Positions 51,194 to 62,152 of a stretch of DNA of 64,000 nt are shown piece after piece. A model generated the notes under the pieces. The model saw only the letters and a list, made by a program, of their open reading frames with translations, did not search any database and was not told where the DNA came from. Numbering within the stretch: position 1 is the first letter of the stretch; each line of letters starts with the position of its first letter. The DNA comes from an uncultured virus (IMG/VR IMGVR_UViG_3300028586_000021). Taxonomy: Duplodnaviria; Heunggongvirae; Uroviricota; Caudoviricetes. The stretch is from IMG/VR virus record IMGVR_UViG_3300028586_000021, positions 1-64,000 of that record; one strand, 5' to 3'. The translations under genes were made by a program, and so were the position numbers.

Positions 51194-54100
51194 TTACATC
51201 GGCATGTTTAGGAAGGTAGATAACGATGGGGCATAACCATCAGTGCCCATTTGTGGGGTTGTGCCTAAGCGCTGGCGGGTTGAAGTCAGTTTGAAATCTT
51301 CTTGCGCTAGCTTGTAGTTCTTATCTGTGATTTCCACCAACTCGGTCACTTTTGTCAGGATGCTACCCAACAAAGTTTCTTCAGCAGTCTTGGTAGGCTG
51401 GCTTGGAGTAGGTGAACTACCGCTTCCGCCTGAAGCGCCGCCTGGGGCCGCTTGCGGTGCACCAGATGGATTATCAACTGAAGGAGTTCCTGATGAAGCA
51501 GGAGACGCCTGAACGCCTTGAGCAGCCAATTGGTCGCGAGTCAGAGCTTCGCCATGCTGGTTGACCAATCCAAGATTGTCAGTAGCAGGTGTTGGTGCTG
51601 TACCTTGAACAGTTGAATTGCCGTTGCGATCTTCTTCATGCTGATCACTCTTGCTCTTCTTATCACGTGCTGCTTTCTTAGCTTCACGTTCCTTACGCTT
51701 CTTAGCTTCTTCTGGCGTATCAGTGTCGGAGAACTTCGTATCAGTCGATGCGAAGCCAATCAATCCACCATTTGCTGATTCAGCTTTCAACTTAGCAAAG
51801 CCTTCACGAGCAGATTTGCCACCAGCCCAATCAGGAATCAAATTGATCATGCCTTCGATCAAATCGGAACCGACCTTAATAGCACCCTTCATAAGCGCCG
51901 TGCCCATGAACTGAACACCCTTCACGAGGCTGCGTAGGATAGTATTTACGATACCACCATCGCCACCTTCTCCGGTAAACGCTGCGATCCAGGTCGATGG
52001 GCTCAATGCATCGGTGATTGCGCCGCCAATCCAACCCATGACTGATTTGAACGCGTCGTATAGGGCTGGGATACCGTTGTTGACAATCCACTCAACTGCG
52101 CCTTCAGCATAGTCAGTGATGATTTGTACGCCATCGGTAGCAACGTCGTTTAGCAAGCGAGCTGTACCATCTGTCGGGATCAAACCAAACGATAGTGTAT
52201 TTAATGCACCAGCAATACCAGCAGAAATCTTTTGCGCAGAGGTAAGGGCTGTTTTCTTGGTGTCAACGCCGAAGATTTCTGCAGCACGATTAACGCCATC
52301 CATTGCACCTTTTAGGCCTTCAATTGCAGCCACCGCAACACCGAGGAATGGAACCGCCTTAGCGCCAAGCGACATGATGCCACCCATAGCTCTACTTGCT
52401 CCACCTGCAACCGCACCTGCTGCTGAACGCGCACCACCAGCGACTGCACCAACTGTAGCTGAACCGGCACGTCCAAGCGCACCAACTGTTCTTCCAGGTG
52501 CTGACTCCATTGCGCGTCGAGTAATACGATCGCCAAAGCCATTGACGCTGTCGACCATTTGCTGACGGCGTTGGGACGATGCTTCACGGACACGATGCAA
52601 AGCGCCTTGAGTGCGGCGGCCGGTACGTTCACGAGCGTCATCAATACGATCAGCAAGAGTGCGAGCACGTGGTGGGGCTGGTGGGCCTTGCAATGCGTTG
52701 TCACGTTCGATACGAGCTTGAACCTTCTTGCGGTTCTCTTCGATCTTCTGTTGAAGTGTTTGCGAACCAATGCTTGTACTATTTTCCAAACCCGCCTTGC
52801 GACGTTCTTTGAACGCCTTATCAGCTTGAATTTGACGGGTTATCTGCTGATGACCTGGCAAACCTGCTTCTTGATATTGCTGCTTAGGCGTCCAACCATG
52901 CTTCTTAGCAACTTGACCCATTTGCGATGAGAAGCGATCAGGGTCTTGGACTACTGATCCAGGGCGTGCGCCAACTTTGCCGTTACCTTTTTTGCCAGGC
53001 TTCTTATCGCCATCCGCATCAGTGCCACTAGTCTTGTTCTTTTTGTCGGGGCCGTCATCATCGTCACGATCCTTCTTCTTACCAAGCTTAGCGAAGTTCT
53101 TTGCCAAGAGGTAGCCGATACCAAGGACACCAACTAGAATTTTAGTTAATGGACTTTGAAGGATTTGGCCAACAGATTCAATCTTAGCTGAAACGCTAGC
53201 AATCTCTGCAGGGACGCGACCGATTGCCTTGTTGGCTTCTACTTCACCAGGAGTCATGCCGCGATCTAGGTTCGCCTCGCGCATTGAGTCCTTCATTCCG
53301 GTCAGTGCTTGGGATGCTTCATCAGCGTACTCACCTAGGATTTGTGAGTTGAGGTCGCCTTTACCAGCAAGCGCATCAGTCTTTGAGGTTAGCTCGCGTG
53401 AGAAGTCCGCCATGAACTTAGCATTCTCTGGGTCCTTCATCGCTGCACGGCCACGTTGTAGGATCGAAGCTGCCTTCGCGGCTTTTGCTGGGTCCATACC
53501 AACAGCAGATGCGGCCGCCATAGCGCCAGCGCTAGCATCCAAACGATCAGCTACTTTGCTGTTCTGAATTTGCTGGAAGGTCTTGATGACATTGATCGCA
53601 GCTTCGTTGGTCAAGCCCATGGTAACTAGACGCTTACGTTCCATGTTGATGCTCTGCACCATTTGGACACGCTGTGCCTTATTCAAGCTCGACATGATCT
53701 TGGTGGAATCGTTGTCCATCAAGATAGCTTTAGTCTGTGCGGCCAATGCTTCGATTGATTCACCGGTCACTGCACGTAGGTGCTCGTAGTCCGCGATCTG
53801 TGCATTTGTCGCTTTTGACAAGGCCGCCTTATCGCGCATATCAACGCCCGTTAGGAACGCGACTTGATTCATCTCAGCACGAGCTTTAGCTGCTTGTTCG
53901 GTGGTGAGACCGAGCTGCATCAACTGTTGCTGCGATTCTTTTAGCGAGTCAGTAAAGCCACGCAGTCCCATCTTACCGACAAGCTTCATGTTAGCTTGGG
54001 TGATGTTGGTTAGCGACTGTAGCGAGATGCCAAGATTGATTGCAGTCATCGACAGTTGGACGAACGCTCCACCAAAACCAGCAGATGCGGTTTCCCAATA

Positions 54101-54949
54101 TTGCTTGTATGCTTCCTTAGCACCAGTAACGATGACCGCCATCGAGCCAGCAAGAGTCGCGGCTTCGTGAGTGATGCCTGATCGGATTGCTAGTGTTGCT
54201 TTTTCCACGCCATCGCGTAGACCATCAGTGACACGTTGTAGGCCACCGAACGAGGTCGAAGTGCGGCGAATGGAGGTACGGATGATGTTTGCGTTACGAG
54301 CTTCATCGTCTAGGGTACGAGCCGCACGAGTGAACTCGTTCTTGCGGATCATCTCCTGGACTTCATCCGACAGGACCATTTCCTTGTTTAGCTTTTGTAG
54401 AGCCTTACGAAGTTTGTCATTATCGGTAATGCTTGATAGGGATTGCTCGCCAATCTCTTTTAGGATTTCGCCGTACTGACCAAGGAACTTGCCAGTCTCT
54501 TCTAGCTTCTCTTCGAGGAATTCTGCTTTCTTACCAGCATTCGCCATGGATTGTCCCATGAACGAGTAATGGCGAATGCTGTTGTTGATCGATTCGATAA
54601 GGTCTTTTTGTGCCTTCTTCGATAGATCGCCGCTCTTGATCATGCCACGAGTAGCATCATCTTGAGCTTCGTACAGGTCTCTTAGAGTTTTGGTGGTGTT
54701 GCTAAAGCCGCGACGTAGGGCATTAATTTCCTTTTCAACATCCCTAGCGGTGTTGCTAAGATTTTTGAAATTCTTTTGCGCTTCCTTAGTATCTACTTGA
54801 TCCTTAGGTTTGGCGCGGCCACCACCAGTGCTAGAGCCAGGACGCCCGCTACCACCAAGATTATCCATCTTGGCGACCAATTGATTAATCGCTTTGCTCA
54901 AGTCACTGATGACTCGGCTCATGTCTGGTGTTCTGTCGGAACTCGCCAT
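51194..54949 (-). CDS. Probable tape measure / baseplate hub protein
   Basis: 1251 aa, helical Ala/Gly-rich with hydrophobic segments, near gp26/gp51-like genes. Confidence 0.65.
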   Translation of the reverse strand: MASSDRTPDMSRVISDLSKAINQLVAKMDNLGGSGRPGSSTGGGRAKPKDQVDTKEAQKNFKNLSNTARDVEKEINALRRGFSNTTKTLRDLYEAQDDATRGMIKSGDLSKKAQKDLIESINNSIRHYSFMGQSMANAGKKAEFLEEKLEETGKFLGQYGEILKEIGEQSLSSITDNDKLRKALQKLNKEMVLSDEVQEMIRKNEFTRAARTLDDEARNANIIRTSIRRTSTSFGGLQRVTDGLRDGVEKATLAIRSGITHEAATLAGSMAVIVTGAKEAYKQYWETASAGFGGAFVQLSMTAINLGISLQSLTNITQANMKLVGKMGLRGFTDSLKESQQQLMQLGLTTEQAAKARAEMNQVAFLTGVDMRDKAALSKATNAQIADYEHLRAVTGESIEALAAQTKAILMDNDSTKIMSSLNKAQRVQMVQSINMERKRLVTMGLTNEAAINVIKTFQQIQNSKVADRLDASAGAMAAASAVGMDPAKAAKAASILQRGRAAMKDPENAKFMADFSRELTSKTDALAGKGDLNSQILGEYADEASQALTGMKDSMREANLDRGMTPGEVEANKAIGRVPAEIASVSAKIESVGQILQSPLTKILVGVLGIGYLLAKNFAKLGKKKDRDDDDGPDKKNKTSGTDADGDKKPGKKGNGKVGARPGSVVQDPDRFSSQMGQVAKKHGWTPKQQYQEAGLPGHQQITRQIQADKAFKERRKAGLENSTSIGSQTLQQKIEENRKKVQARIERDNALQGPPAPPRARTLADRIDDARERTGRRTQGALHRVREASSQRRQQMVDSVNGFGDRITRRAMESAPGRTVGALGRAGSATVGAVAGGARSAAGAVAGGASRAMGGIMSLGAKAVPFLGVAVAAIEGLKGAMDGVNRAAEIFGVDTKKTALTSAQKISAGIAGALNTLSFGLIPTDGTARLLNDVATDGVQIITDYAEGAVEWIVNNGIPALYDAFKSVMGWIGGAITDALSPSTWIAAFTGEGGDGGIVNTILRSLVKGVQFMGTALMKGAIKVGSDLIEGMINLIPDWAGGKSAREGFAKLKAESANGGLIGFASTDTKFSDTDTPEEAKKRKEREAKKAARDKKSKSDQHEEDRNGNSTVQGTAPTPATDNLGLVNQHGEALTRDQLAAQGVQASPASSGTPSVDNPSGAPQAAPGGASGGSGSSPTPSQPTKTAEETLLGSILTKVTELVEITDKNYKLAQEDFKLTSTRQRLGTTPQMGTDGYAPSLSTFLNMPM

Positions 54950-55029
54950 TTGTTATGCCCTATTGGAGAAATTAAGTCTATGTCATATTTATTGAATTTC
55001 AGCCATCCTGAAAGTTGATAAATATTCAC

Positions 55030-55443
55030 ATGGCAAATGCAAATCACAAAACATCCGCAAGCAAAGATGGTCGCCTAAAGACGGAAGACTTGGTCTTCGA
55101 TCCTAAGAAAATGACCTTCAACGACTTCATCGCGAACAATGCGGTGATGATGCTTCCGGGTATCAGTACGAAGATGCTCACGATGGGAGGATTGCGCCTA
55201 GGGCTACTACCACCATTGGCACAAGAGTATTTCGTCAGATGGTTGTTCGAAGTCAACAGGCGGCGCCTGGAACAAGGCTTGGAGCTGATGGTGACATACG
55301 ACATCATCAAGCAATGTCCTTTGTGGAAGGTTATCCCAATGCCTTACCGCAACATCAAGATGACTAAAGAATCTGTCGCTGCATTGGACAAGCTCATTCC
55401 GCCTGAAAAGAGACTCAAATTTCAGGCCATCAATAAGAAATAA
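55030..55443 (+). CDS. Hypothetical protein
   Basis: ATG 55030 just after late promoter GATAAATA (55017-55024). Confidence 0.65.
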   Translation: MANANHKTSASKDGRLKTEDLVFDPKKMTFNDFIANNAVMMLPGISTKMLTMGGLRLGLLPPLAQEYFVRWLFEVNRRRLEQGLELMVTYDIIKQCPLWKVIPMPYRNIKMTKESVAALDKLIPPEKRLKFQAINKK

Positions 55444-55479
55444 ATATAGCAGTCAACTACACAATAAGGAATATTCTCA

Positions 55480-56277
55480 ATGGAACAAGTCACTCCATCA
55501 GCAAATCCGCTGATGTCCAAAATCAAAATGCCAGGTCGTATCTTCCGACTACCATCTGGTGGCTATCTTTACAAGAATGGCGAGCTAAGCGAGTCATGCA
55601 AGGATGGTGAGGTTCATGTTCGCCCAATGTCGGCACTAGCCGAAATCAAGATGAAGAATCCTGATATGCTATTCTCAGGCCAAGCCGTTCGTGAAGTCCT
55701 AGCAGAATGCGTCGAAGAAATCAAGAAGCCAGATGAACTATTCGGTCGTGACGTTGATGCGCTAATGTGCTTCCTACGTGTGGTTACCTATGGTCCAGAG
55801 TTCCGCATCGAAGCAGACCATGGCTGCCAACCAGATTCAAGCGTGCATGGCTATGTGATCGACATCGAAGGCATCATCAACGCTATTCGTCAACTCGACC
55901 CAACCACTATCGGACAGCGCTATGCGGTCAATCTGCCAAATGGTCAGGTCGTAACGCTAGACCCAATTCGCTTCAAGACCGTCGTGGAATTGATGCAAGC
56001 AAATAACAAGGACCTACCTACTGCTGAAGACATTCAGCGTAACATGATCCAGAACTTGCTGAACATGATCGCTGACATCGATGGCATCACCGATAAGGCA
56101 ATGATTCAGGAATGGATCGTCAGCGCTCCAGCGCCATACATTGGCGCTATCGCTAATGCATTGGATACCTCAAATGAATGGGGTCCTAAGTTTGAACAAG
56201 AAGTCGTGTGCCGTGATTGCGGCCAAAAGATGATTGTTGAACTGCCACTTAATCCAGTAAATTTTTTTTCAGGATAA
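55480..56277 (+). CDS. gp26: Baseplate hub assembly protein (gp26-like)
   Basis: LPSGG..Y, RPM...EI, D.DAL...LR..TYG, C-terminal CRDC...LNP..FF. Confidence 0.8.
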   Translation: MEQVTPSANPLMSKIKMPGRIFRLPSGGYLYKNGELSESCKDGEVHVRPMSALAEIKMKNPDMLFSGQAVREVLAECVEEIKKPDELFGRDVDALMCFLRVVTYGPEFRIEADHGCQPDSSVHGYVIDIEGIINAIRQLDPTTIGQRYAVNLPNGQVVTLDPIRFKTVVELMQANNKDLPTAEDIQRNMIQNLLNMIADIDGITDKAMIQEWIVSAPAPYIGAIANALDTSNEWGPKFEQEVVCRDCGQKMIVELPLNPVNFFSG

Positions 56278-56321
56278 TTAAAGGCGGGAATGGTGAGCAA
56301 ATCGGTTCCTATATTGCTCAA

Positions 56322-56504
56322 TTGGGAAGCGAGACACGAGCCATTCTCCGTTCAGCAACCGAATTGGTGTACTACATGCGAGGTGGCTTGTCATATACCG
56401 AGGTGATGGCTATGAGTGCAGGTGAGCGAGAGGTAGTTGCTTCATTCATCAATAAGGCAATGAAGAACGCGAAAGATGACCCACGCACTGTGATCATGCT
56501 TTAA
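56322..56504 (+). CDS. Baseplate hub assembly catalyst-like ORF (gp51-like), possibly expressed by -1 frameshift from gp26
   Basis: YYMRGGLSY.E..AMS..ERE; frame is open from 56253; TTG start lacks a clear RBS. Confidence 0.65.
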   Translation: MGSETRAILRSATELVYYMRGGLSYTEVMAMSAGEREVVASFINKAMKNAKDDPRTVIML

Positions 56505-57257
56505 TTATCCAAACGCACAGACGTGTAGATCAGCTCGCTGATAGCACGTCTTTTGTTCGCCAGAACAAATACCAAAAATCCGATAGTGGCTCTCGCATAA
56601 ACTCCTATGTCATATAAGAGCTCTTACTAGGCCTTCTATCGGATTTGTCTCATGATGCATATCTCTGAACGACTCGCTGTCGCTCGTCAGAAGAGGTAAT
56701 TGCTGTCGCACTTCCCTCTTCTTTATTTCCCTATCGGGCTAGTTCTACTACCTATTGGTAGGGTATTCCTCGATCCTCGGGATACTATAGCGCTATTCAG
56801 CGCCAACCCCAAAAGTCTCAGCATCAGAAACTCTTGTTTTGGTTTCACTCTTCAGGATCAAATGTCGATCCAACCTGCCCAGGTACTGCTTTACCAGGAA
56901 TTCGAGTGTGTTTGCGGATACAGTGACGCATACCAAGTAGGACTATTAACCAAACAATTCGTCCTACTTCCGTTATCAATCTTGTGATAACATCTGGGGA
57001 ATTTATAAGCTTGAAGTCGTAAAATGCTTTTACGCTAGATAGTTTATAAAACCGAGCGGTCGCCATATGGACATTTGGGCGACTCTTCAAAACGACGATT
57101 ATGGTTCCTCTCGCGTTCTCGGGTTTGTTTATGGATTAGCAGCTCATATCCTGCACACCAACGGGCTGGTTAACGATTCACAGACCCCGAATAAATTTCT
57201 GACGTATGAGTGTAAACGAAAAAAGCGCACGACATTATATCGTGCGCTTTTGGGCAA
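56505..57257. ncRNA. Candidate large structured non-coding RNA (or structured DNA element)
   Basis: ~750 nt without a convincing ORF and with more than a dozen closely packed inverted repeats. Confidence 0.45.
57219..57251. terminator. Terminator for the minus-strand operon
   Basis: AAAAGCGCACGA...TCGTGCGCTTTT. Confidence 0.7.
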
Positions 57258-57503
57258 TTACATGCCTTGTTTGCGAGCTGCCTTCTTCAACTGCTTGTAA
57301 ACACCGCGTGCCGAATTCGGATTCACCATCAGGGTGCCTGGTAGGTACTTGATCTGTGGTGGGTTCTCGAGCACGCCTTCCTTAGCTTCAGGAGCAGCTT
57401 CAATGACGAAGCGCTTCGAGTTGCCTAGGTACTTGGTGCTGAATGCTTCGGTTGCCATGGTGGCAGCTAGTTTACGTAGTTTCTTTGCGGTTTTGGAGTT
57501 CAT
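57258..57503 (-). CDS. Small basic hypothetical protein
   Basis: MNSKTAKKLRKLA...RGVYKQLKK. Confidence 0.7.
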   Translation of the reverse strand: MNSKTAKKLRKLAATMATEAFSTKYLGNSKRFVIEAAPEAKEGVLENPPQIKYLPGTLMVNPNSARGVYKQLKKAARKQGM

Positions 57504-57649
57504 TTGAAAAGGTCTCTTTGTTATTTTTATATGTGAGTATGGGCGAATACATTTGCGTACTCAACCCCATGAAACGAACCACAGACATTGCATCTTGATT
57601 CTTTGTTTCATGGTGATGAATTATACACCGCTTTCCGTCAAGGGACGAT

Positions 57650-58183
57650 TTATTTCATCCAAAAATCTGCGTGTTTGATTAGGTCCTCAAAGTGGCAGAC
57701 TTTGATCCCTTCCAAGATCGTAATGTGCTTCACATCCTCTGGTAGGACGATGTCAGGCTCAACAGCAGCGTAGATAGGAGTGTTGTTGAATTTGAAGATA
57801 AGGATACCACGCTTATCCACTTTAGCAGCATCTGTCGCCGCCTCTCGCATCCAGGAGTAGATGTGTGACGTACCAAACAGAGCTTCCATACGTTCGGCTT
57901 CTTTGTAGAACTTGCACTCAACGACGAAGTTGAATCGTGGATTACCATCAACACACTCGTTGGTTGGTACAACGTCTCCGGTGAACAGAGCGAGAGTGAG
58001 CTTGCTATAGTCGCCCGCTGTTTTCGCATTCATCCCGCCGACGATTGCGCCTGACATTTGACTCTTCTTGAATTTGAGTGGTGCTAGAGCTGCGGTTAGA
58101 ATCTTGCTAACCTTCAGTTCAAATGCACCACCCTTTGCTTTGCCGTTAACCTTCTTCTTTACGGTCTTCTTTTCTTCGGTCAT
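57650..58183 (-). CDS. Holliday junction resolvase (Hjc-like PD-(D/E)xK)
   Basis: GKAKGGAFE, SGA, GDV, VECK motifs. Confidence 0.8.
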   Translation of the reverse strand: MTEEKKTVKKKVNGKAKGGAFELKVSKILTAALAPLKFKKSQMSGAIVGGMNAKTAGDYSKLTLALFTGDVVPTNECVDGNPRFNFVVECKFYKEAERMEALFGTSHIYSWMREAATDAAKVDKRGILIFKFNNTPIYAAVEPDIVLPEDVKHITILEGIKVCHFEDLIKHADFWMK

Positions 58184-58637
58184 GATCCTTCAGTTCCTGA
58201 CAATACTCTTGTACTATCACGATTTCAGGAAGAGCAACACTGATGTCCTTCAAAATGCTCACGTCGTAATCACCAATGTCATACGAGAGAGTAATGTGAG
58301 GAATGTAGGTTGGGAAGTCGTGTGAAGCGCCCTCCCAATTCCTTAGAAAATTATGTCGTCCAATTGCTTCTGGACAATCAATCTTTAGGACCAAACAGTT
58401 CGTGCCACTCTTAGTGCTGAATACGTCAAAGCCAATAGGCCTTGCAATCCAACCAGGAGTAATGTCACGCTGCTTTGGTACATTGGGTAGGTGTTTGCGG
58501 CTATACGCGATTGTGCTGTGATACTCGGCTTGATCAATCAGGTTTGGAACCGCATTAGCAACTCCAAACCCAACCAACTTAGCAACGGTCTCTTCATGAA
58601 ATCTAACAGCGACAAAAGTTCCGTTGTTATGTTTCAT
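58146..58637 (-). CDS. acb1: 2H phosphodiesterase, anti-CBASS Acb1 / T4 gp57B-like
   Basis: GTFVAVRF, HSTIAYSR and HDFPTYIPHITLSYD (two HxT motifs). Confidence 0.85.
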   Translation of the reverse strand: MKHNNGTFVAVRFHEETVAKLVGFGVANAVPNLIDQAEYHSTIAYSRKHLPNVPKQRDITPGWIARPIGFDVFSTKSGTNCLVLKIDCPEAIGRHNFLRNWEGASHDFPTYIPHITLSYDIGDYDVSILKDISVALPEIVIVQEYCQELKDHDRRKEDRKEEG

Positions 58638-58642
58638 GGTAT

Positions 58643-60388
58643 TTATACAACCTCAATTCGATCAATTGCGCTGAATCCATTCTCGAAGCGAACAGTCATC
58701 TCACGATCAAAACGACCAATACACTCTGGACGGTGACTGATCACCCAAATGCCTAGGTTGTTTTCTTGTGAGGCCTTCAACTTCACCGAACGAATAATAG
58801 CTTCGACGCCAGGAGCATCCATCGCACCAGCATCCACCTCATCGACGACCAGAATGTTCACACCAGTATGTAGGTGCTGAAGCATGTCGCGGAACGCCAT
58901 GGACAGGGCTAAGTTCAGGCGCTTCTTCTCGCCACCCGATAGATTACCGTAGTCCAACTCACGACCGAACTCTGAGATGGTGCAGGACATGTCAGGATTG
59001 AACGTGACCATATGAGTCAAGCCCAATGTCTTAGCATGGTAGTGAATCTGCTTATTCAGGAACGGAACAGACTTATTGATGATCTTCTTACGAATGAACG
59101 AATTCTTATCGACCAACAGTTTGAGCAAGAACTTCTGATGCTCAAGGTCCGACTTCATCTGATCAAGCTTCGAGTAATCGACAACCACTTCAGCTTCGTT
59201 GAGCAACTGCTCAAACGCTTCCAAGTGTGGGTTAGTACTTGACTCAACGCCCTTGATTTGAACTTGAACACCCGCTGCGTTTGCCTTGTCGTTGAGCAAA
59301 GCATTCATATTGGGGTAAATCAATTGGCGAGCAATTTCAGCGCGTTGCGATTCTGCCTCATCAAATTTCGTTTGATTCTCATCGCGAATCACTTGGAACT
59401 CTGCAACCTCATTCGTCAGCGAGGTGACTTGGGATTCGAGTTCTTCAATCTTCGCTTGAGTGTCGTTGAACTTCTGTAGGCAGTATGGGCACTTTGCGTC
59501 ACGAAGATGAACTAACTCTTCAGTGGCCTTTTTGATCTTCGATTCACGAGCTTTGATCTGAGTATTTGACTCAGTGACCATAGCACGATAATCGCGTTGC
59601 ACTGCAACGATATGATCATTCTGGCGATGCAACTCTTCTTGGGCATCAAAGTCAATAGCGGAAATCTTTTCAGCATGAGCCTTCAACGTCGCAATGCGAG
59701 TTTCCTTATCGGTCTCCCACTTGAGAATACGAGCTTCAGCATCCTTGATATGTTTCGCATGGAGTGCTTTAGCTTTCTCCTGTTGCTCACATAACGTTTG
59801 CTGAACTGCAATGTCCTTCTCAAGGTTCTGATTCATCTGCTTGAGGTTGACTGCCTTCTCCGACAGCTTCGTGATCTTGAACATCTCTTCGATGATCGTA
59901 CGCTGTTGCGCAAGCGACATATCGAAGAACGGTTGATCACCGCCAAGGAAGACAACGGTACGTCGGAACAATTCGAAGCTGATGCCAATGATTTCGACGA
60001 GGGCCTTGTTGACGTTTTCGATCGAGTCAGGAGTCTTGTCCTCACCATTGATCAGCAACTTGGTTTCGTAGTCGGCACCGCGTGAGCGAATGATCTTGTA
60101 ATCGATGCCATTGACCTCGAAGGTCAATGTCACGACCATGCTCGTGTTCTTCGCGTTATTCGTGGTATTGATCAAACGTTCCTTACTGATTTTCTCAAGT
60201 GGAACGTTGTAGAGTGCGTAGCAGATTGCGTTCGCGATTGTGGTCTTACCCACACCGTTAGCACCACCTTTGTCGATGTTCTCGCCAAGGATAAGTGTGG
60301 TGCCAACTGCTGAAAGGTCCACGACTTCAGTTTTGTTACCGAAGCCGAGGAAGTTTCTAATGGTTAATTCTTTTAGTTTTAGTGACAT
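58643..60388 (-). CDS. gp46: Recombination endonuclease subunit, SbcC/Rad50-like ATPase
   Basis: NGVGKTT, CPYC zinc hook, LSGGE signature, VDE, ISH. Confidence 0.95.
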   Translation of the reverse strand: MSLKLKELTIRNFLGFGNKTEVVDLSAVGTTLILGENIDKGGANGVGKTTIANAICYALYNVPLEKISKERLINTTNNAKNTSMVVTLTFEVNGIDYKIIRSRGADYETKLLINGEDKTPDSIENVNKALVEIIGISFELFRRTVVFLGGDQPFFDMSLAQQRTIIEEMFKITKLSEKAVNLKQMNQNLEKDIAVQQTLCEQQEKAKALHAKHIKDAEARILKWETDKETRIATLKAHAEKISAIDFDAQEELHRQNDHIVAVQRDYRAMVTESNTQIKARESKIKKATEELVHLRDAKCPYCLQKFNDTQAKIEELESQVTSLTNEVAEFQVIRDENQTKFDEAESQRAEIARQLIYPNMNALLNDKANAAGVQVQIKGVESSTNPHLEAFEQLLNEAEVVVDYSKLDQMKSDLEHQKFLLKLLVDKNSFIRKKIINKSVPFLNKQIHYHAKTLGLTHMVTFNPDMSCTISEFGRELDYGNLSGGEKKRLNLALSMAFRDMLQHLHTGVNILVVDEVDAGAMDAPGVEAIIRSVKLKASQENNLGIWVISHRPECIGRFDREMTVRFENGFSAIDRIEVV

Positions 60389-61450: not shown

Positions 61451-62152
61451 TTAGAAAGTTAGAAGCGAATTAACGATCTTCTCTTTCTTTTCTTTTTGCT
61501 CTTGACGCTTCGATTTCTTTAGCTTGGCTTCATCCACTTTCTTTTTGTATGGATTTGATTCTGGTACACGACCAGAATCGCCAGCTGAAGAGTAGTTGAT
61601 GTCATCCGAATTACGATTGGATTCCATGAACGAGTACGAAGCATCTTGGCCAGCTTCAGTTAGCAATGTATCGCGAATGAAGCGTTCCTTCTTCTCGTCC
61701 AACATGTACTGCAAGAAAGAATTCTTAATTGAAGTAGTGTAGAACGCGAACGGGTTCGATGATTTTTCTGGATTGAACTTGAGAGCGTTTTGGACTAGGT
61801 TAACCAGCGCAGCTGATACCATGTCCTCGCGGAAGGAGTAACCGTTGAAATTTGCTTTACGCGAATAACGATCGGTAAGCAACATTAGCATGCGTGCTAA
61901 TTTGTCGGTCATTTTACCACGCTCTTTTGCTTCAAGGACGGCAGGGAGCAGGTCAGCGTTCGTTAAATAATATTTCGGAACACGTTTCTTAGGCATGATG
62001 AATGCGGGAACTTCCGCTTCGCCAAAGAGTTGTTCAGGAGAAGTGATGTCCGGAAAAGTGACTGGGCCTGATTTACCGGTTGAGCGTGGTGCAGGAGTTA
62101 CATCGAACTCTGCTGGGATAGTAGTGATTGGAGTGAATGCTTCTTTAGACAT
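61451..62152 (-). CDS. gp55: Late transcription sigma factor
   Basis: YLTN..L, NF.GYSFREDM, F.PEKS.NPFAFYT. Confidence 0.88.
   Translation of the reverse strand: MSKEAFTPITTIPAEFDVTPAPRSTGKSGPVTFPDITSPEQLFGEAEVPAFIMPKKRVPKYYLTNADLLPAVLEAKERGKMTDKLARMLMLLTDRYSRKANFNGYSFREDMVSAALVNLVQNALKFNPEKSSNPFAFYTTSIKNSFLQYMLDEKKERFIRDTLLTEAGQDASYSFMESNRNSDDINYSSAGDSGRVPESNPYKKKVDEAKLKKSKRQEQKEKKEKIVNSLLTF

What the first reader, a model, noticed from the sequence alone, without database searches (positions are those of the whole stretch)
56505..57257. ~750-nt hairpin-dense non-coding region: candidate novel large structured RNA
Seen: the largest gap in a gene-dense window is tiled with stems, several nested: AGACGTG/CACGTCT (56519-56551), TTTGTTC/GAACAAA, AAATCCGATAG/CTATCGGATTT (56576-56646), AGAAGAGG/CCTCTTCT (56689-56722), CTACC/GGTAG, GGATC/GATCC, AAGTAGGAC/GTCCTACTT (56935-56969), GTTATCA/TGATAAC, TTTATAAGCT/AGTTTATAAA enclosing CGTAAAA/TTTTACG, and GTCGCC/GGCGAC. 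GCTGTCGC occurs twice. A GTTTACA -35-like box points into it from 57217 (minus), while a few G-U pairs favour the plus strand, so the strand is unresolved. I saw no tRNA, tmRNA, RNase P or intron hallmark. Inference: an undescribed phage ncRNA comparable in size to ROOL/GOLLD, or a structured replication or packaging origin.
Basis: partly seen in the sequence, partly recalled or inferred. Interest (0 to 1): 0.8.

Follow-up and report, generated by a model that had tools for sequence, protein, structure and literature searches.

The report
Large EGFOA-like RNA in jumbo phage
The gene-free gap holds a conserved, heavily folded non-coding RNA of at least about 420 bases, read from the minus strand of a roughly 349-kb soil phage; one part of it resembles a known small phage RNA (EGFOA) that can self-assemble, and what it does is unknown.

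Summary
All the listed stems exist. The 753-nt gap folds far better than shuffles (z -6.1 on plus, -7.4 on minus), while 16 control segments of the window average z -0.7. No reading frame is conserved.

The same element lies in the syntenic gap of 3 distinct uncultured relatives and of the cultured Ralstonia jumbo phage RsoM2USA, where it is unannotated. Across these 5 sequences the helices covary:
- 3' domain: 25 of 46 pairs changed on both sides.
- 5' domain: 14 of 29 pairs.
- Two pseudoknots are fully paired, each with 2 compensatory pairs.

G-U outnumbers A-C 15 to 1 when read on the minus strand, so the strand is minus. The conserved core is 56789-57212. The closest relatives share an extension to about 56576. 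The outermost hairpins (57221-57251 and 56519-56551) are terminators of the flanking genes.

No Rfam family reaches threshold. The 3' domain shares several features with EGFOA (RF02955), in the same order:
- a hairpin with a 17-nt loop, 14 of 17 bases identical;
- the 5' CCNAG pseudoknot partner;
- a UUUGGUUAA loop.

Its score is 24.5 bits against a threshold of 37.7, so it is not a member. I read it as a new, much larger variant of the EGFOA kind. Expression evidence is weak and function is unknown.

The parts
56789..57212 (-). Core of the structured RNA, conserved in all 5 distinct sequences: window, 3 IMG/VR relatives and Ralstonia phage RsoM2USA
   Evidence: Alignments A1 and A3. RNAalifold predicts 73 pairs, 32 with compensatory changes. 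RNA-library contigs from 2 runs end at 57210 and 57212, a weak hint of the 5' end.
57052..57189 (-). 5' domain. H1 is 57162-57189, with a bulge and conserved loop UCGUUAAC. H2 is 57132-57160, with an inner hairpin whose loop is G(A/C)UAUG(A/G)G. H3 is a three-way junction at 57052-57122 containing GCGA/UCGU and GUCGCC/GGCGAC.
   Evidence: on MAFFT alignment A10 (4 sequences): 99.1% of cells paired against 84.2% in shuffles; 14 of 29 pairs changed on both sides; slid controls 0-1. No Rfam match at E<=10.
57002..57050 (-). Its length varies among relatives. Its 3' arm carries TATAAAT (57001-57007).
   Evidence: Sequences. The inner hairpin is missing in L004, L005 and RsoM2USA.
56838..56998 (-). 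EGFOA-like 3' domain: hairpins A (56972-56991), B (56935-56969) and C (56913-56930), and helix E (56904-56908 with 56846-56850) enclosing hairpins F and D (56855-56871)
   Evidence: Model R1. RsoM2USA scores 44.1 bits, E 5.8e-9, full length; 97.8% of cells paired against 81.0%; 25 of 46 pairs changed on both sides; 0 of 500 shuffles as high. EGFOA sub-threshold hit at 56861-57003 minus, 24.5 bits.
56874..56898 (-). Hairpin F: 4-bp stem CCUG/CAGG with 17-nt loop GUAAAGCAGUACCUGGG
   Evidence: The loop is 14 of 17 identical to the EGFOA consensus loop GUAAAGCUAGACCUgGG (cmscan alignments). It is invariant in 3 of 5 sequences and changed at 2 and 3 positions in the other two.
56994..56998 (-). 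Pseudoknot 1, 5' strand CCCAG. It pairs with CUGGG in the loop of hairpin F (56878-56882).
   Evidence: All 25 cells are Watson-Crick. L005 has CCUAG:CUAGG and RsoM2USA has UCCAG:CUGGA, which makes 2 compensatory pairs. The pseudoknot was not part of the model that made the alignment.
56948..56954 (-). Pseudoknot 2, UUUGGUU in the loop of hairpin B. It pairs with AACCAAA in the 3' tail (56838-56844). The pairing could be within one molecule or between molecules.
   Evidence: All 35 cells are Watson-Crick. RsoM2USA has AAUGGUU:AACCAUU, which makes 2 compensatory pairs.
56789..56835 (-). Variable hairpin U (56811-56835) and conserved terminal hairpin T (GGCGCU/AGCGCU, 56789-56804)
   Evidence: The loop-closing pair of T covaries (UA:2, CG:2), and the outer G-U is kept in 4 sequences.
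56576..56788 (-). 3' extension with further hairpins (56748-56761, 56689-56722, 56576-56646) and the conserved blocks ACGAGCGACAGCGAGU and ACAAAUCCGAUAGAAG. It is shared only with L003 and L004; a GCGACAGC loop is also present in RsoM2USA.
   Evidence: Alignment A8; blastn. Whether it belongs to the same transcript is not shown.
57221..57251 (-). Intrinsic terminator of the upstream minus-strand gene (81-aa ORF 57258-57503): a 14-bp stem followed by a U-run. It is a palindrome and could also stop plus-strand transcripts.
   Evidence: A weak Rfam match to the terminator end of an sRNA model.
56519..56551 (+). Terminator-like hairpin followed by TTTTGTT, after the plus-strand ORF that ends at 56504
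   Evidence: The stem is kept with changed sequence in L003. The terminator scan did not call it.
55480..56504 (+). Flanking plus-strand genes: gp51-like baseplate hub (55480-56277) and a conserved small ORF (to 56504)
   Evidence: PF12322 at 4.6e-7 and phrog_150. Used as the synteny anchor.

Best explanation
The gap encodes a stand-alone, trans-acting structured RNA on the minus strand. It is at least about 424 nt long (57212 down to 56789) and may reach about 640 nt in this phage. The phage is a roughly 349-kb T4-like jumbo phage related to Ralstonia phage RsoM2USA.

The RNA has two domains joined by a variable hairpin. The 5' domain has three helical arms with conserved loops and no known relative. 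The 3' domain is compacted by two pseudoknots: CCCAG with the 17-nt loop of hairpin F, and UUUGGUU in the loop of hairpin B with the AACCAAA tail. This 3' domain is a divergent, enlarged relative of the EGFOA small RNA.

Shown here: conservation, covariation, the strand, the absence of a conserved frame, and the shared EGFOA motifs.

Inferred: that the RNA is one transcript starting just after the terminator at 57221-57251. Also inferred, by analogy with EGFOA RNAs reported to form trimers and strand-swapped dimers in vitro, is that the 3' domain serves as a self-association or scaffold module rather than as a cis-regulator. The biological role in infection is unknown.
For: Structure beyond chance: z -7.44 (minus) and -6.14 (plus); 16 control segments have mean z -0.69 and minimum -3.42.

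Conservation in synteny: all 5 related IMG/VR loci (3 distinct sequences) keep the 56837-57137 block, and the closest relative is collinear from 55011 to 57533. RsoM2USA has an unannotated 1.4-kb gap at the same place. Model R1, built without RsoM2USA, hits that gap full length at 44.1 bits, E 5.8e-9.

Covariation: RNAalifold finds 32 of 73 pairs compensatory. In the 3' domain 25 of 46 pairs changed on both sides and 97.8% of cells are paired, with 0 of 500 shuffles as high and slid controls of 2-6. In the 5' domain 14 of 29 pairs changed on both sides and 99.1% of cells are paired, with slid controls of 0-1, on a plain MAFFT alignment. Both pseudoknots are 100% paired with 2 compensatory pairs each, and they were not in the model that aligned the sequences.

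Strand: 15 G-U against 1 A-C when read on the minus strand over the 75 pairs. In the 35 pairs that RNAalifold predicts on both strands the count is 9 G-U against 0 A-C. The alifold energy is -52.1 on minus against -43.5 on plus.

Not coding: indels are not multiples of three. The longest open frames differ in place and frame in all 5 sequences, and all six frames give similar fragmentary tblastn hits. No Pfam or PHROG family matches.

Not a 5' leader: the element lies between convergent genes, and no minus-strand gene follows it.

EGFOA link: a cmscan hit on minus at 24.5 bits, E 0.054, and 24.7 bits in the L005-type sequence. Loop F is 14 of 17 identical to the EGFOA consensus loop. Genuine EGFOA RNAs fetched from viral contigs (5 of 18 pattern loci pass the gathering score) show the same CC(N)AG(AU) 5' element complementary to the loop. 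One of them (L061, identical to L071) has a UUUGGUUAAA hairpin loop and an AACCA tail in the same order.

Expression hint: contigs of RNA libraries from 2 runs cover 56930-57212 at 100% identity. One bridges the two domains (56930-57081), and two end at 57210 and 57212.
Against: Only 5 distinct sequences exist, and 4 of them are close kin, so the covariation counts share history.

No promoter was found (0 sigma-70-like sites) and no terminator was found for the RNA itself.

The RNA-library evidence is a few contigs of 150-151 nt, about read length, at depth 2-3. They carry no strand information, and DNA carry-over cannot be excluded. The flanking genes are covered as well.

EGFOA similarity is below Rfam's threshold in every sequence. 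It is reported in only 2 of the 5 distinct sequences: none for the L003 and L004 types at E<=1 and none for RsoM2USA at E<=5. My model R1 recognises genuine EGFOA loci only through hairpin F, at 13 bits or less. The EGFOA block CCGUCcUAG with P1 is absent, and the enclosing helix holds different hairpins.

One A-C mismatch in hairpin A of L004, and one in connector hairpin V of the window, would be G-U on the plus strand.

A TATAAAT late-promoter-like box at 57001-57007 could mean that the 3' domain is transcribed separately.
Confidence: 0.7

Rival explanations
1. There are two separate RNAs rather than one: a novel 5' RNA (57052-57212), and an EGFOA-like small RNA of about 170-220 nt started from the T4-type late-promoter-like TATAAATT at 57001-57008.
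For: TATAAATA is strongly enriched in the window (7 sites against 0.61 expected) and the phage encodes a gp55-like late sigma factor. TATAAAT sits directly upstream of the EGFOA-like domain and is kept in L003 and L004. EGFOA itself is a small RNA.
Against: By the T4 rule (recalled, not tested here) a start about 6 nt after the box would fall at or after the G of CCCAG. That would remove the pseudoknot-1 strand, which covaries. The box is degenerate in L005 (AATAAATT) and RsoM2USA (TATAAAAT), and it lies in the 3' arm of hairpin V. One RNA-library contig spans the junction (56930-57081).
Confidence: 0.15
2. The RNA is on the plus strand: a long structured 3' UTR of the gp51-like operon, or a plus-strand sRNA ending at the 57221-57251 hairpin.
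For: The plus strand also folds well (z -6.14). The terminal palindrome is followed by TTTTGGG on plus. Two A-C mismatches on minus would be G-U on plus.
Against: G-U to A-C is 15 to 1 in favour of minus, and 9 to 0 in the pairs predicted on both strands. A terminator-like hairpin (56519-56551) follows the plus-strand ORF before the element. The EGFOA match is on the minus strand only.
Confidence: 0.05
3. It is a DNA-level element: a replication origin, a packaging site or a recombination hotspot whose hairpins act as DNA cruciforms or single-stranded DNA structures.
For: It is a large gene-free region with many inverted repeats. It lies next to recombination genes (a PDDEXK/RusA-like resolvase and gp46/47-like SbcCD).
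Against: There are no iterons; the only direct repeat is one 2-copy family of 13 nt. There is no GC-skew turn and no AT-rich dip. It lies between convergent genes, not divergent ones. The strand-asymmetric G-U pattern and the two pseudoknots with compensatory changes are expected for RNA, not duplex DNA.
Confidence: 0.04
4. It contains an unannotated or decayed protein gene.
For: Stop-free frames of 95 aa (plus, 56700-56987), 81 aa (minus, 56845-57090) and 77 aa (plus, 57067-57300) exist.
Against: They match no Pfam or PHROG family. The 77-aa frame has an in-frame TGA in L003 and a 2-nt insertion in L004. The longest frames differ in position and frame in every relative. Substitutions are compensatory in stems.
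Confidence: 0.02

Closest known systems
EGFOA RNA motif (Rfam RF02955; Weinberg et al. 2017, PMC5737381). Reported in the bioRxiv preprint 10.64898/2026.07.01.735769 to form a trimer and a strand-swapped dimer.
   Same: Both are on the transcribed strand of a large gene-free gap in viral or metagenomic DNA. Both have a hairpin with a 17-nt loop GUAAAGCNNNACCUGGG (14 of 17 identical). Both have an upstream CC(N)AG(AU) complementary to that loop. In one EGFOA variant (L061, identical to L071) there is a preceding hairpin with a UUUGGUUAA loop and an AACCA tail. These four elements come in the same order.
   Different: The score is 24.5 bits against a gathering score of 37.7. The conserved CCGUCcUAG block and P1 are absent. 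Here the closing helix encloses F and D, not the pair equivalent to B and F. There are extra hairpins (A, C, D), a roughly 140-nt 5' domain with no counterpart in the EGFOA loci examined, and a total length of 424 nt or more against about 108 nt.
ROOL and GOLLD large RNAs. They are phage- or prophage-associated; that they form multimeric cages is recalled from the literature and was not read here beyond the passages.
   Same: Size class (hundreds of nt), many helices, association with phages, unknown function.
   Different: No match to any Rfam model at E<=10 over 56300-57500. No tRNA genes nearby (0 in the window), whereas GOLLD and ROOL are often near tRNAs (PMC5737381, passage). Found in a lytic T4-like jumbo phage lineage.
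phi29 packaging RNA (pRNA). Recalled; no call.
   Same: A phage-encoded structured RNA whose function depends on base pairing between complementary loops of neighbouring molecules. Pseudoknot 2 here could pair in trans in the same way.
   Different: No sequence or structural homology was tested or seen. pRNA is about 120-174 nt and belongs to small podoviruses. A role in packaging here is pure conjecture.

Membership tests
EGFOA (RF02955) | Covariance-model score at or above Rfam's gathering score (37.7 bits) | tested here: not met
   24.5 bits for the window and 24.7 bits for the L005-type sequence. No hit at E<=1 for the L003 and L004 types. No hit at E<=5 for RsoM2USA. No hit in the window at gathering level. 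Genuine EGFOA loci score 57-69.7 bits with the same tool.
EGFOA (RF02955) | Hairpin with the conserved 17-nt loop GUAAAGCUAGACCUgGG | tested here: met
   Hairpin F at 56874-56898 has a 4-bp stem and the 17-nt loop GUAAAGCAGUACCUGGG, 14 of 17 identical. It is present in all 5 sequences.
EGFOA (RF02955) | 5' CCcAG element able to pair with CUgGG of that loop | tested here: met
   The pairing CCCAG:CUGGG is kept through 2 compensatory pairs. Of the 4 distinct genuine EGFOA sequences, 3 show 4-5 bp of the same complementarity, and the fourth is cut by its contig end. That this is a recognised feature of the family is my inference from the consensus; I could not read a description of the family.
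EGFOA (RF02955) | Conserved single-stranded CCGUCcUAG followed by hairpin P1 | tested here: not met
   The block is absent. cmscan deletes P1 in the window's alignment. Hairpin A stands at a comparable place but has no sequence likeness.
EGFOA (RF02955) | Helix P2 enclosing P3 and the 17-nt-loop hairpin P4 | tested here: not met
   Helix E (CACUC/GAGUG, covarying) encloses F and a following hairpin D. The P3-like hairpin B lies outside it.
EGFOA (RF02955) | Homo-oligomer formation (trimer, or dimer by 3' strand exchange) | not testable with these tools
   Known only from passages of the preprint 10.64898/2026.07.01.735769. The loop-tail pairing of pseudoknot 2 could act in trans.
ROOL, GOLLD, OLE, HEARO, raiA and other large Rfam RNAs; group I and II introns; RNase P; tmRNA | Match to the family's covariance model | tested here: not met
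   0 matches at gathering level in the window. None of these families appears among the 6 matches at E<=10 over 56300-57500. ARAGORN finds 0 genes.
Replication origin or pac site | Iterons or an AT-rich unwinding region, a skew turn, divergent transcription | tested here: not met
   One 2-copy 13-nt direct repeat only. GC stays at 0.45-0.46 with no skew turn. The flanking genes are convergent.
Intrinsic terminator (for the hairpin at 57221-57251 only) | G+C-rich stem followed by a U-run, downstream of a gene | tested here: met
   A 14-bp stem with 6 G-C pairs followed by TTCGTTT on minus, directly after the 81-aa ORF.

The most novel reading that the evidence does not exclude
This is a new class of large (about 420-640 nt), two-domain phage RNA. 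In it an EGFOA-type module, through trans pairing of the UUUGGUU loop with the AACCAAA tail, drives self-assembly into a multimeric RNA particle or scaffold that a jumbo phage uses during infection. Possible uses are virion or baseplate assembly, or sequestering a host factor. It would join ROOL, GOLLD and phi29 pRNA as an assembling phage RNA, and it has a cultured phage (RsoM2USA) in which it could be tested.
Probability: 0.2. Interest if true: 0.85.

Novelty: new variant of a known kind. Interest (0 to 1): 0.62.

Why it matters
Large structured non-coding RNAs with strong comparative support are rare, and most have no known function. This one has clear covariation and two supported pseudoknots. 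It also has a homologue in a cultured, sequenced jumbo phage, where the region is simply unannotated.

It links the small, function-less EGFOA motif to a much larger multi-domain RNA and to a defined virus lineage. That gives a genomic and biological setting for a motif so far known mainly from metagenomes and from in-vitro assemblies.

If the shared module is an oligomerisation unit, the RNA would be a natural case of a modular, self-assembling phage RNA.

Tried and rejected
Searches for more members:
- Exact and gapped DNA patterns from invariant blocks were scanned in viral contigs. They found only the 5 known relatives. The 14 extra loci and L012 share nothing beyond the pattern.
- The metagenome scan gave 7 loci. 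One is the window's own 348,873-bp contig, one is a known relative, and 5 loci (3 distinct sequences) are chance matches.
- The relaxed pattern found 0 matches in genome contigs.
- A protein-profile search with the gp51-like alignment returned the same 5 loci.
- blastn against GenBank phages gave no match for 56300-57500, only 29-31-nt chance hits in cyanophage structural genes for 56780-57215, and only RsoM2USA itself for its own copy.

Model R1 on the whole genomes of RsoM2USA, XacN1, Xoo-sp13 and RAS14:
- No second copy was found.
- The weak RsoM2USA hit of 13 bits lies in annotated genes despite a 14-nt loop-like match. The 14.5-bit RsoM2USA hit and the 19.2-bit Xoo-sp13 hit lack the loop motifs in their alignments; I did not look at their annotation.
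- XacN1, Xoo-sp13 and RAS14 have unannotated gaps of about 680-820 nt two genes further on, but no R1 or Rfam hit there.

Other checks:
- Rfam on the chance loci gave nothing.
- The motifs of the 5' domain are absent from genuine EGFOA loci.
- MAFFT misaligned RsoM2USA in hairpin B and in the 5' domain. I therefore used the model-based alignment A7 for the 3' domain and only the 4 close sequences for the 5' domain. RsoM2USA's 5' helices were judged by eye and are not counted.

Sequencing runs:
They say nothing about habitat.
- Parts of the gap without RNA-library contigs (56633-56929) are no evidence of absence.

Papers:
- The supplement of PMC5737381 that describes EGFOA could not be read, and its main text does not name EGFOA. 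The defining features are therefore taken from the Rfam consensus printed by cmscan.
- The RsoM2USA genome paper (PMC8504454; term search of the main text only) has 0 occurrences of non-coding, noncoding, intergenic, ncRNA or small RNA.
- A full-text search for 'EGFOA' found 2 papers, one of them irrelevant.
Full report
**Setting.** The window is part of a T4-like phage. It carries a gp20-type portal, a gp51-like baseplate hub, gp46/47-like SbcCD, a gp55-like late sigma factor and an Acb1 homologue. The record held is 75.7 kb, but the same sequence lies 100% identical over 2,800 bases on a 348,873-bp metagenome contig, so this is a jumbo phage. Its nearest cultured relative is Ralstonia phage RsoM2USA (343.8 kb), with 59% portal identity and 51% gp51-like identity. 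Next come XacN1, Xoo-sp13, the Stenotrophomonas phages and the PA5oct-like phages. The gap 56505-57257 lies between convergent genes. On plus these are the gp51-like gene (55480-56277) and a conserved small ORF ending at 56504. On minus it is an 81-aa ORF (57258-57503), preceded by a PDDEXK/RusA-like gene and Acb1.

**Observation.** The listed stems are real. Folded as RNA, the 753 nt give -234.3 kcal/mol (z -6.14) on plus and -251.2 kcal/mol (z -7.44) on minus, with no shuffle as stable. In a control of my own, 16 other 753-nt segments of the window gave a mean z of -0.69 and a minimum of -3.42, against -7.8 for the target. Rfam at gathering level finds nothing in the whole window, and ARAGORN finds nothing.

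**Conservation.** The gp51-like protein retrieved 5 related IMG/VR loci, of which 3 are distinct here (L005, L006 and L007 are identical in this region).
- The closest relative (L003) is collinear with the window from 55011 to 57533 at 75% identity. The two more distant relatives keep a block at 56837-57137 at 69-72%, about as well as the flanking genes.
- The alignment shows long invariant blocks between hairpins whose arms differ but stay complementary. Indels are of 1, 2, 5, 7 and 26 or more nt.
- In RsoM2USA the syntenic place is an unannotated 1.4-kb gap that contains recognisable homologous blocks.
- A covariance model of the 3' domain built from the four close sequences (R1) hits that gap full length at 44.1 bits, E 5.8e-9. 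This is an independent confirmation, since RsoM2USA was not in the model.

**Not coding.** ORFs inside the gap match no Pfam or PHROG family. The 77-aa plus frame is interrupted in L003 and shifted in L004. The longest stop-free frames fall in different places and frames in each of the five sequences, and all six frames of the window give only short tblastn fragments of similar strength.

**Structure and covariation.** RNAalifold on the five minus-strand sequences predicts 73 pairs, 32 of them with compensatory double changes. I curated the structure into two domains.

The 3' domain (56838-56998) has these elements:
- hairpins A, B and C;
- helix E, which encloses hairpin F and hairpin D;
- hairpin F, a 4-bp stem with a 17-nt loop;
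- hairpin D, which has a GAAA tetraloop in 3 of 5 sequences.

On the model-based alignment of all five sequences, 97.8% of cells are standard pairs against 81.0% in shuffles. Of 46 pairs, 25 show changes on both sides against 9.1 expected, and 0 of 500 shuffles reach the observed values. Sliding the partners by 1-3 columns leaves 2-6 such pairs. That alignment is fitted to the nested helices, which favours them. The two pseudoknots were not in the model, so they are not favoured.
- Pseudoknot 1: CCCAG (56994-56998) pairs with CUGGG in the loop of F (56878-56882). It becomes CCUAG:CUAGG in L005 and UCCAG:CUGGA in RsoM2USA.
- Pseudoknot 2: UUUGGUU in the loop of B (56948-56954) pairs with AACCAAA (56838-56844). 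It becomes AAUGGUU:AACCAUU in RsoM2USA.
- All 60 cells of the two pseudoknots are Watson-Crick.

The 5' domain (57052-57189) has H1 with a bulge, H2 with an inner hairpin, and a three-way junction H3. It was counted on a plain MAFFT alignment of the four close sequences. There, 99.1% of cells are paired against 84.2%, 14 of 29 pairs changed on both sides, and slid controls give 0-1. RsoM2USA was left out of that count because MAFFT misaligned it. By eye it has equivalent helices with different sequences, but that is not a count.

A variable connector hairpin (57002-57050) joins the domains. A variable hairpin and a conserved GGCGC hairpin (56789-56835) follow the 3' domain.

The caveat for all of this is that there are five sequences, four of them close kin.

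**Strand.** Read on minus, the 75 curated pairs contain 15 G-U cells and 1 A-C cell. Among the 35 pairs that RNAalifold predicts on either strand there are 9 G-U and 0 A-C. The consensus energy is -52.1 on minus against -43.5 on plus. The one A-C cell in the count (hairpin A of L004), and a further A-C in connector hairpin V of the window, speak the other way. The EGFOA match is on minus.

**Ends and expression.** Immediately upstream on minus is a strong intrinsic terminator (57221-57251) belonging to the 81-aa gene. A box ACAC(U/C)CAUA follows it in the four close sequences. No sigma-70-like promoter is found. TATAAATA, the T4 late-promoter consensus (recalled), is enriched in the window: 7 sites against 0.61 expected. 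A TATAAAT lies at 57001-57007 between the domains. A start there would cut off the pseudoknot-1 strand, so I rank the two-transcript reading lower.

In four metatranscriptomic runs laid on 55400-58700, Logan contigs at 100% identity cover:
- 56930-57081, 57063-57212 and 57060-57210, from two runs;
- parts of both flanking gene blocks.

Two contigs from different runs end at 57210 and 57212, and one bridges the domain junction. These are contigs of about read length at depth 2-3. They carry no strand information, and DNA in the libraries cannot be excluded. This is only a weak hint of a transcript starting near 57212. The 3' end is unknown. Conservation in all lineages ends near 56789. L003 and L004 share further blocks and hairpins down to about 56633, with the window's long hairpin reaching 56576.

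**Relation to known families.** With permissive thresholds, the only notable Rfam match is EGFOA (RF02955) on minus at 56861-57003: 24.5 bits against a gathering score of 37.7, E 0.054 for that 1.2-kb search. The L005-type sequence scores 24.7 bits. The L003 and L004 types and RsoM2USA are not reported. To see genuine members I scanned viral contigs for the consensus loop. Of 18 loci, 5 (4 distinct) score 57-69.7 bits, so EGFOA occurs on viral contigs.

Features that genuine EGFOA RNAs share with the present RNA:
- the short-stemmed hairpin (4 bp here) with a 17-nt loop, 14 of 17 identical;
- an upstream CC(N)AG, often followed by AU(G), complementary to that loop;
- in L061 (identical to L071), a preceding hairpin with an AUUUGGUUAAA loop and a downstream AACCA;
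- all of these in the same order.

Features that are not shared:
- the CCGUCcUAG block and P1;
- the set of hairpins enclosed by the closing helix;
- the whole 5' domain.

R1 recognises EGFOA loci only through hairpin F. That test is partly circular, because those loci were fetched with that loop. I therefore do not file the RNA as a member of EGFOA. I regard its 3' domain as a divergent, expanded relative, or at least as a carrier of the same tertiary module.

What is known of EGFOA comes from two sources. One is Rfam's typing of it as an sRNA gene. The other is passages of a 2026 preprint (10.64898/2026.07.01.735769). The preprint describes it as lying in unusually large gene-free intergenic regions and as forming a trimer and a 3'-strand-exchanged dimer by cryo-EM. 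The supplement of the discovery paper (PMC5737381) could not be read.

**Mechanism.** Shown here: a conserved, covarying, pseudoknotted RNA fold selected on the minus strand, placed where it cannot be a leader of any gene. Inferred: it is an independent trans-acting RNA, and its EGFOA-like domain mediates higher-order folding or self-association. Pseudoknot 2 is a loop-tail pairing that could equally form between molecules. I put about 0.7 on the overall statement. Within it I put about 0.9 on 'structured minus-strand ncRNA' and about 0.6 on 'EGFOA-related'. The role in infection is open.

**Novelty.** A full-text search for 'EGFOA' found only the preprint and an irrelevant paper. The RsoM2USA genome paper does not mention non-coding or intergenic features other than tRNAs (term search), and the record has no annotation under the element. 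The family is small: 6 IMG/VR contigs including the window's own, the metagenome contigs that duplicate two of them, and RsoM2USA. It was not found in 185,579 bacterial and archaeal species genomes by the relaxed pattern.

Noticed in passing
window 56253-56504 (also L003, L004, L005, L051, L052, L053, L054): The small ORF after the gp51-like gene is open in the -1 frame from before the gp51-like stop codon in all 8 phages examined. A conserved peptide (FFFRIIK / FFFRVIR / FFYSAIK / FFYRTLR) lies upstream of any plausible start codon. In 5 of the 8 a T8-T9 run sits at the overlap. This looks like a possible programmed -1 frameshift fusing the baseplate-hub protein to the downstream ORF.
   Followed up: partly
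window 4965, 19617, 47565, 47649, 47900, 58640, 62278: TATAAATA occurs 7 times against 0.61 expected. By their positions against the ORF list, several appear to lie just upstream of ORF starts, which was not checked site by site. Together with the gp55-like sigma factor at 61451-62152, this suggests that the phage uses T4-type late promoters.
   Followed up: partly
L045 (metagenome contig of 348,873 bp): The window's sequence is part of a contig of about 349 kb, so the phage is a jumbo phage. The IMG/VR record held is only 75.7 kb, rated 22% complete.
   Followed up: partly
L052 6342-7025; L053 6403-7099; L054 6322-7141: XacN1, Xoo-sp13 and RAS14 have unannotated gaps of about 680-820 nt two genes downstream of their gp51-like gene, before a helicase gene. 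Model R1 and Rfam find nothing there. They might hold an unrelated RNA, or one too diverged to detect.
   Followed up: partly
L061, L070, L071, L073, L078: Genuine EGFOA RNAs (57-69.7 bits) lie on IMG/VR viral contigs of 8-63 kb, which shows that this motif is carried by viruses. Their genomic neighbourhoods were not examined.
   Followed up: no
window 58146-58637 and 57650-58183: An Acb1 anti-CBASS homologue (PF23474, 7.5e-31) overlaps by 38 nt a phage PDDEXK/RusA-like nuclease gene, about 1 kb from the RNA on the same strand.
   Followed up: no
window 51194-54949: A 1251-aa ORF between the portal gene and the gp51-like gene has no Pfam or PHROG match.
   Followed up: no
window 57034: One RNA-library contig lacks one base at this place, in the inner hairpin of connector V (depth 3, one contig). 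It may be a strain variant or an error.
   Followed up: no
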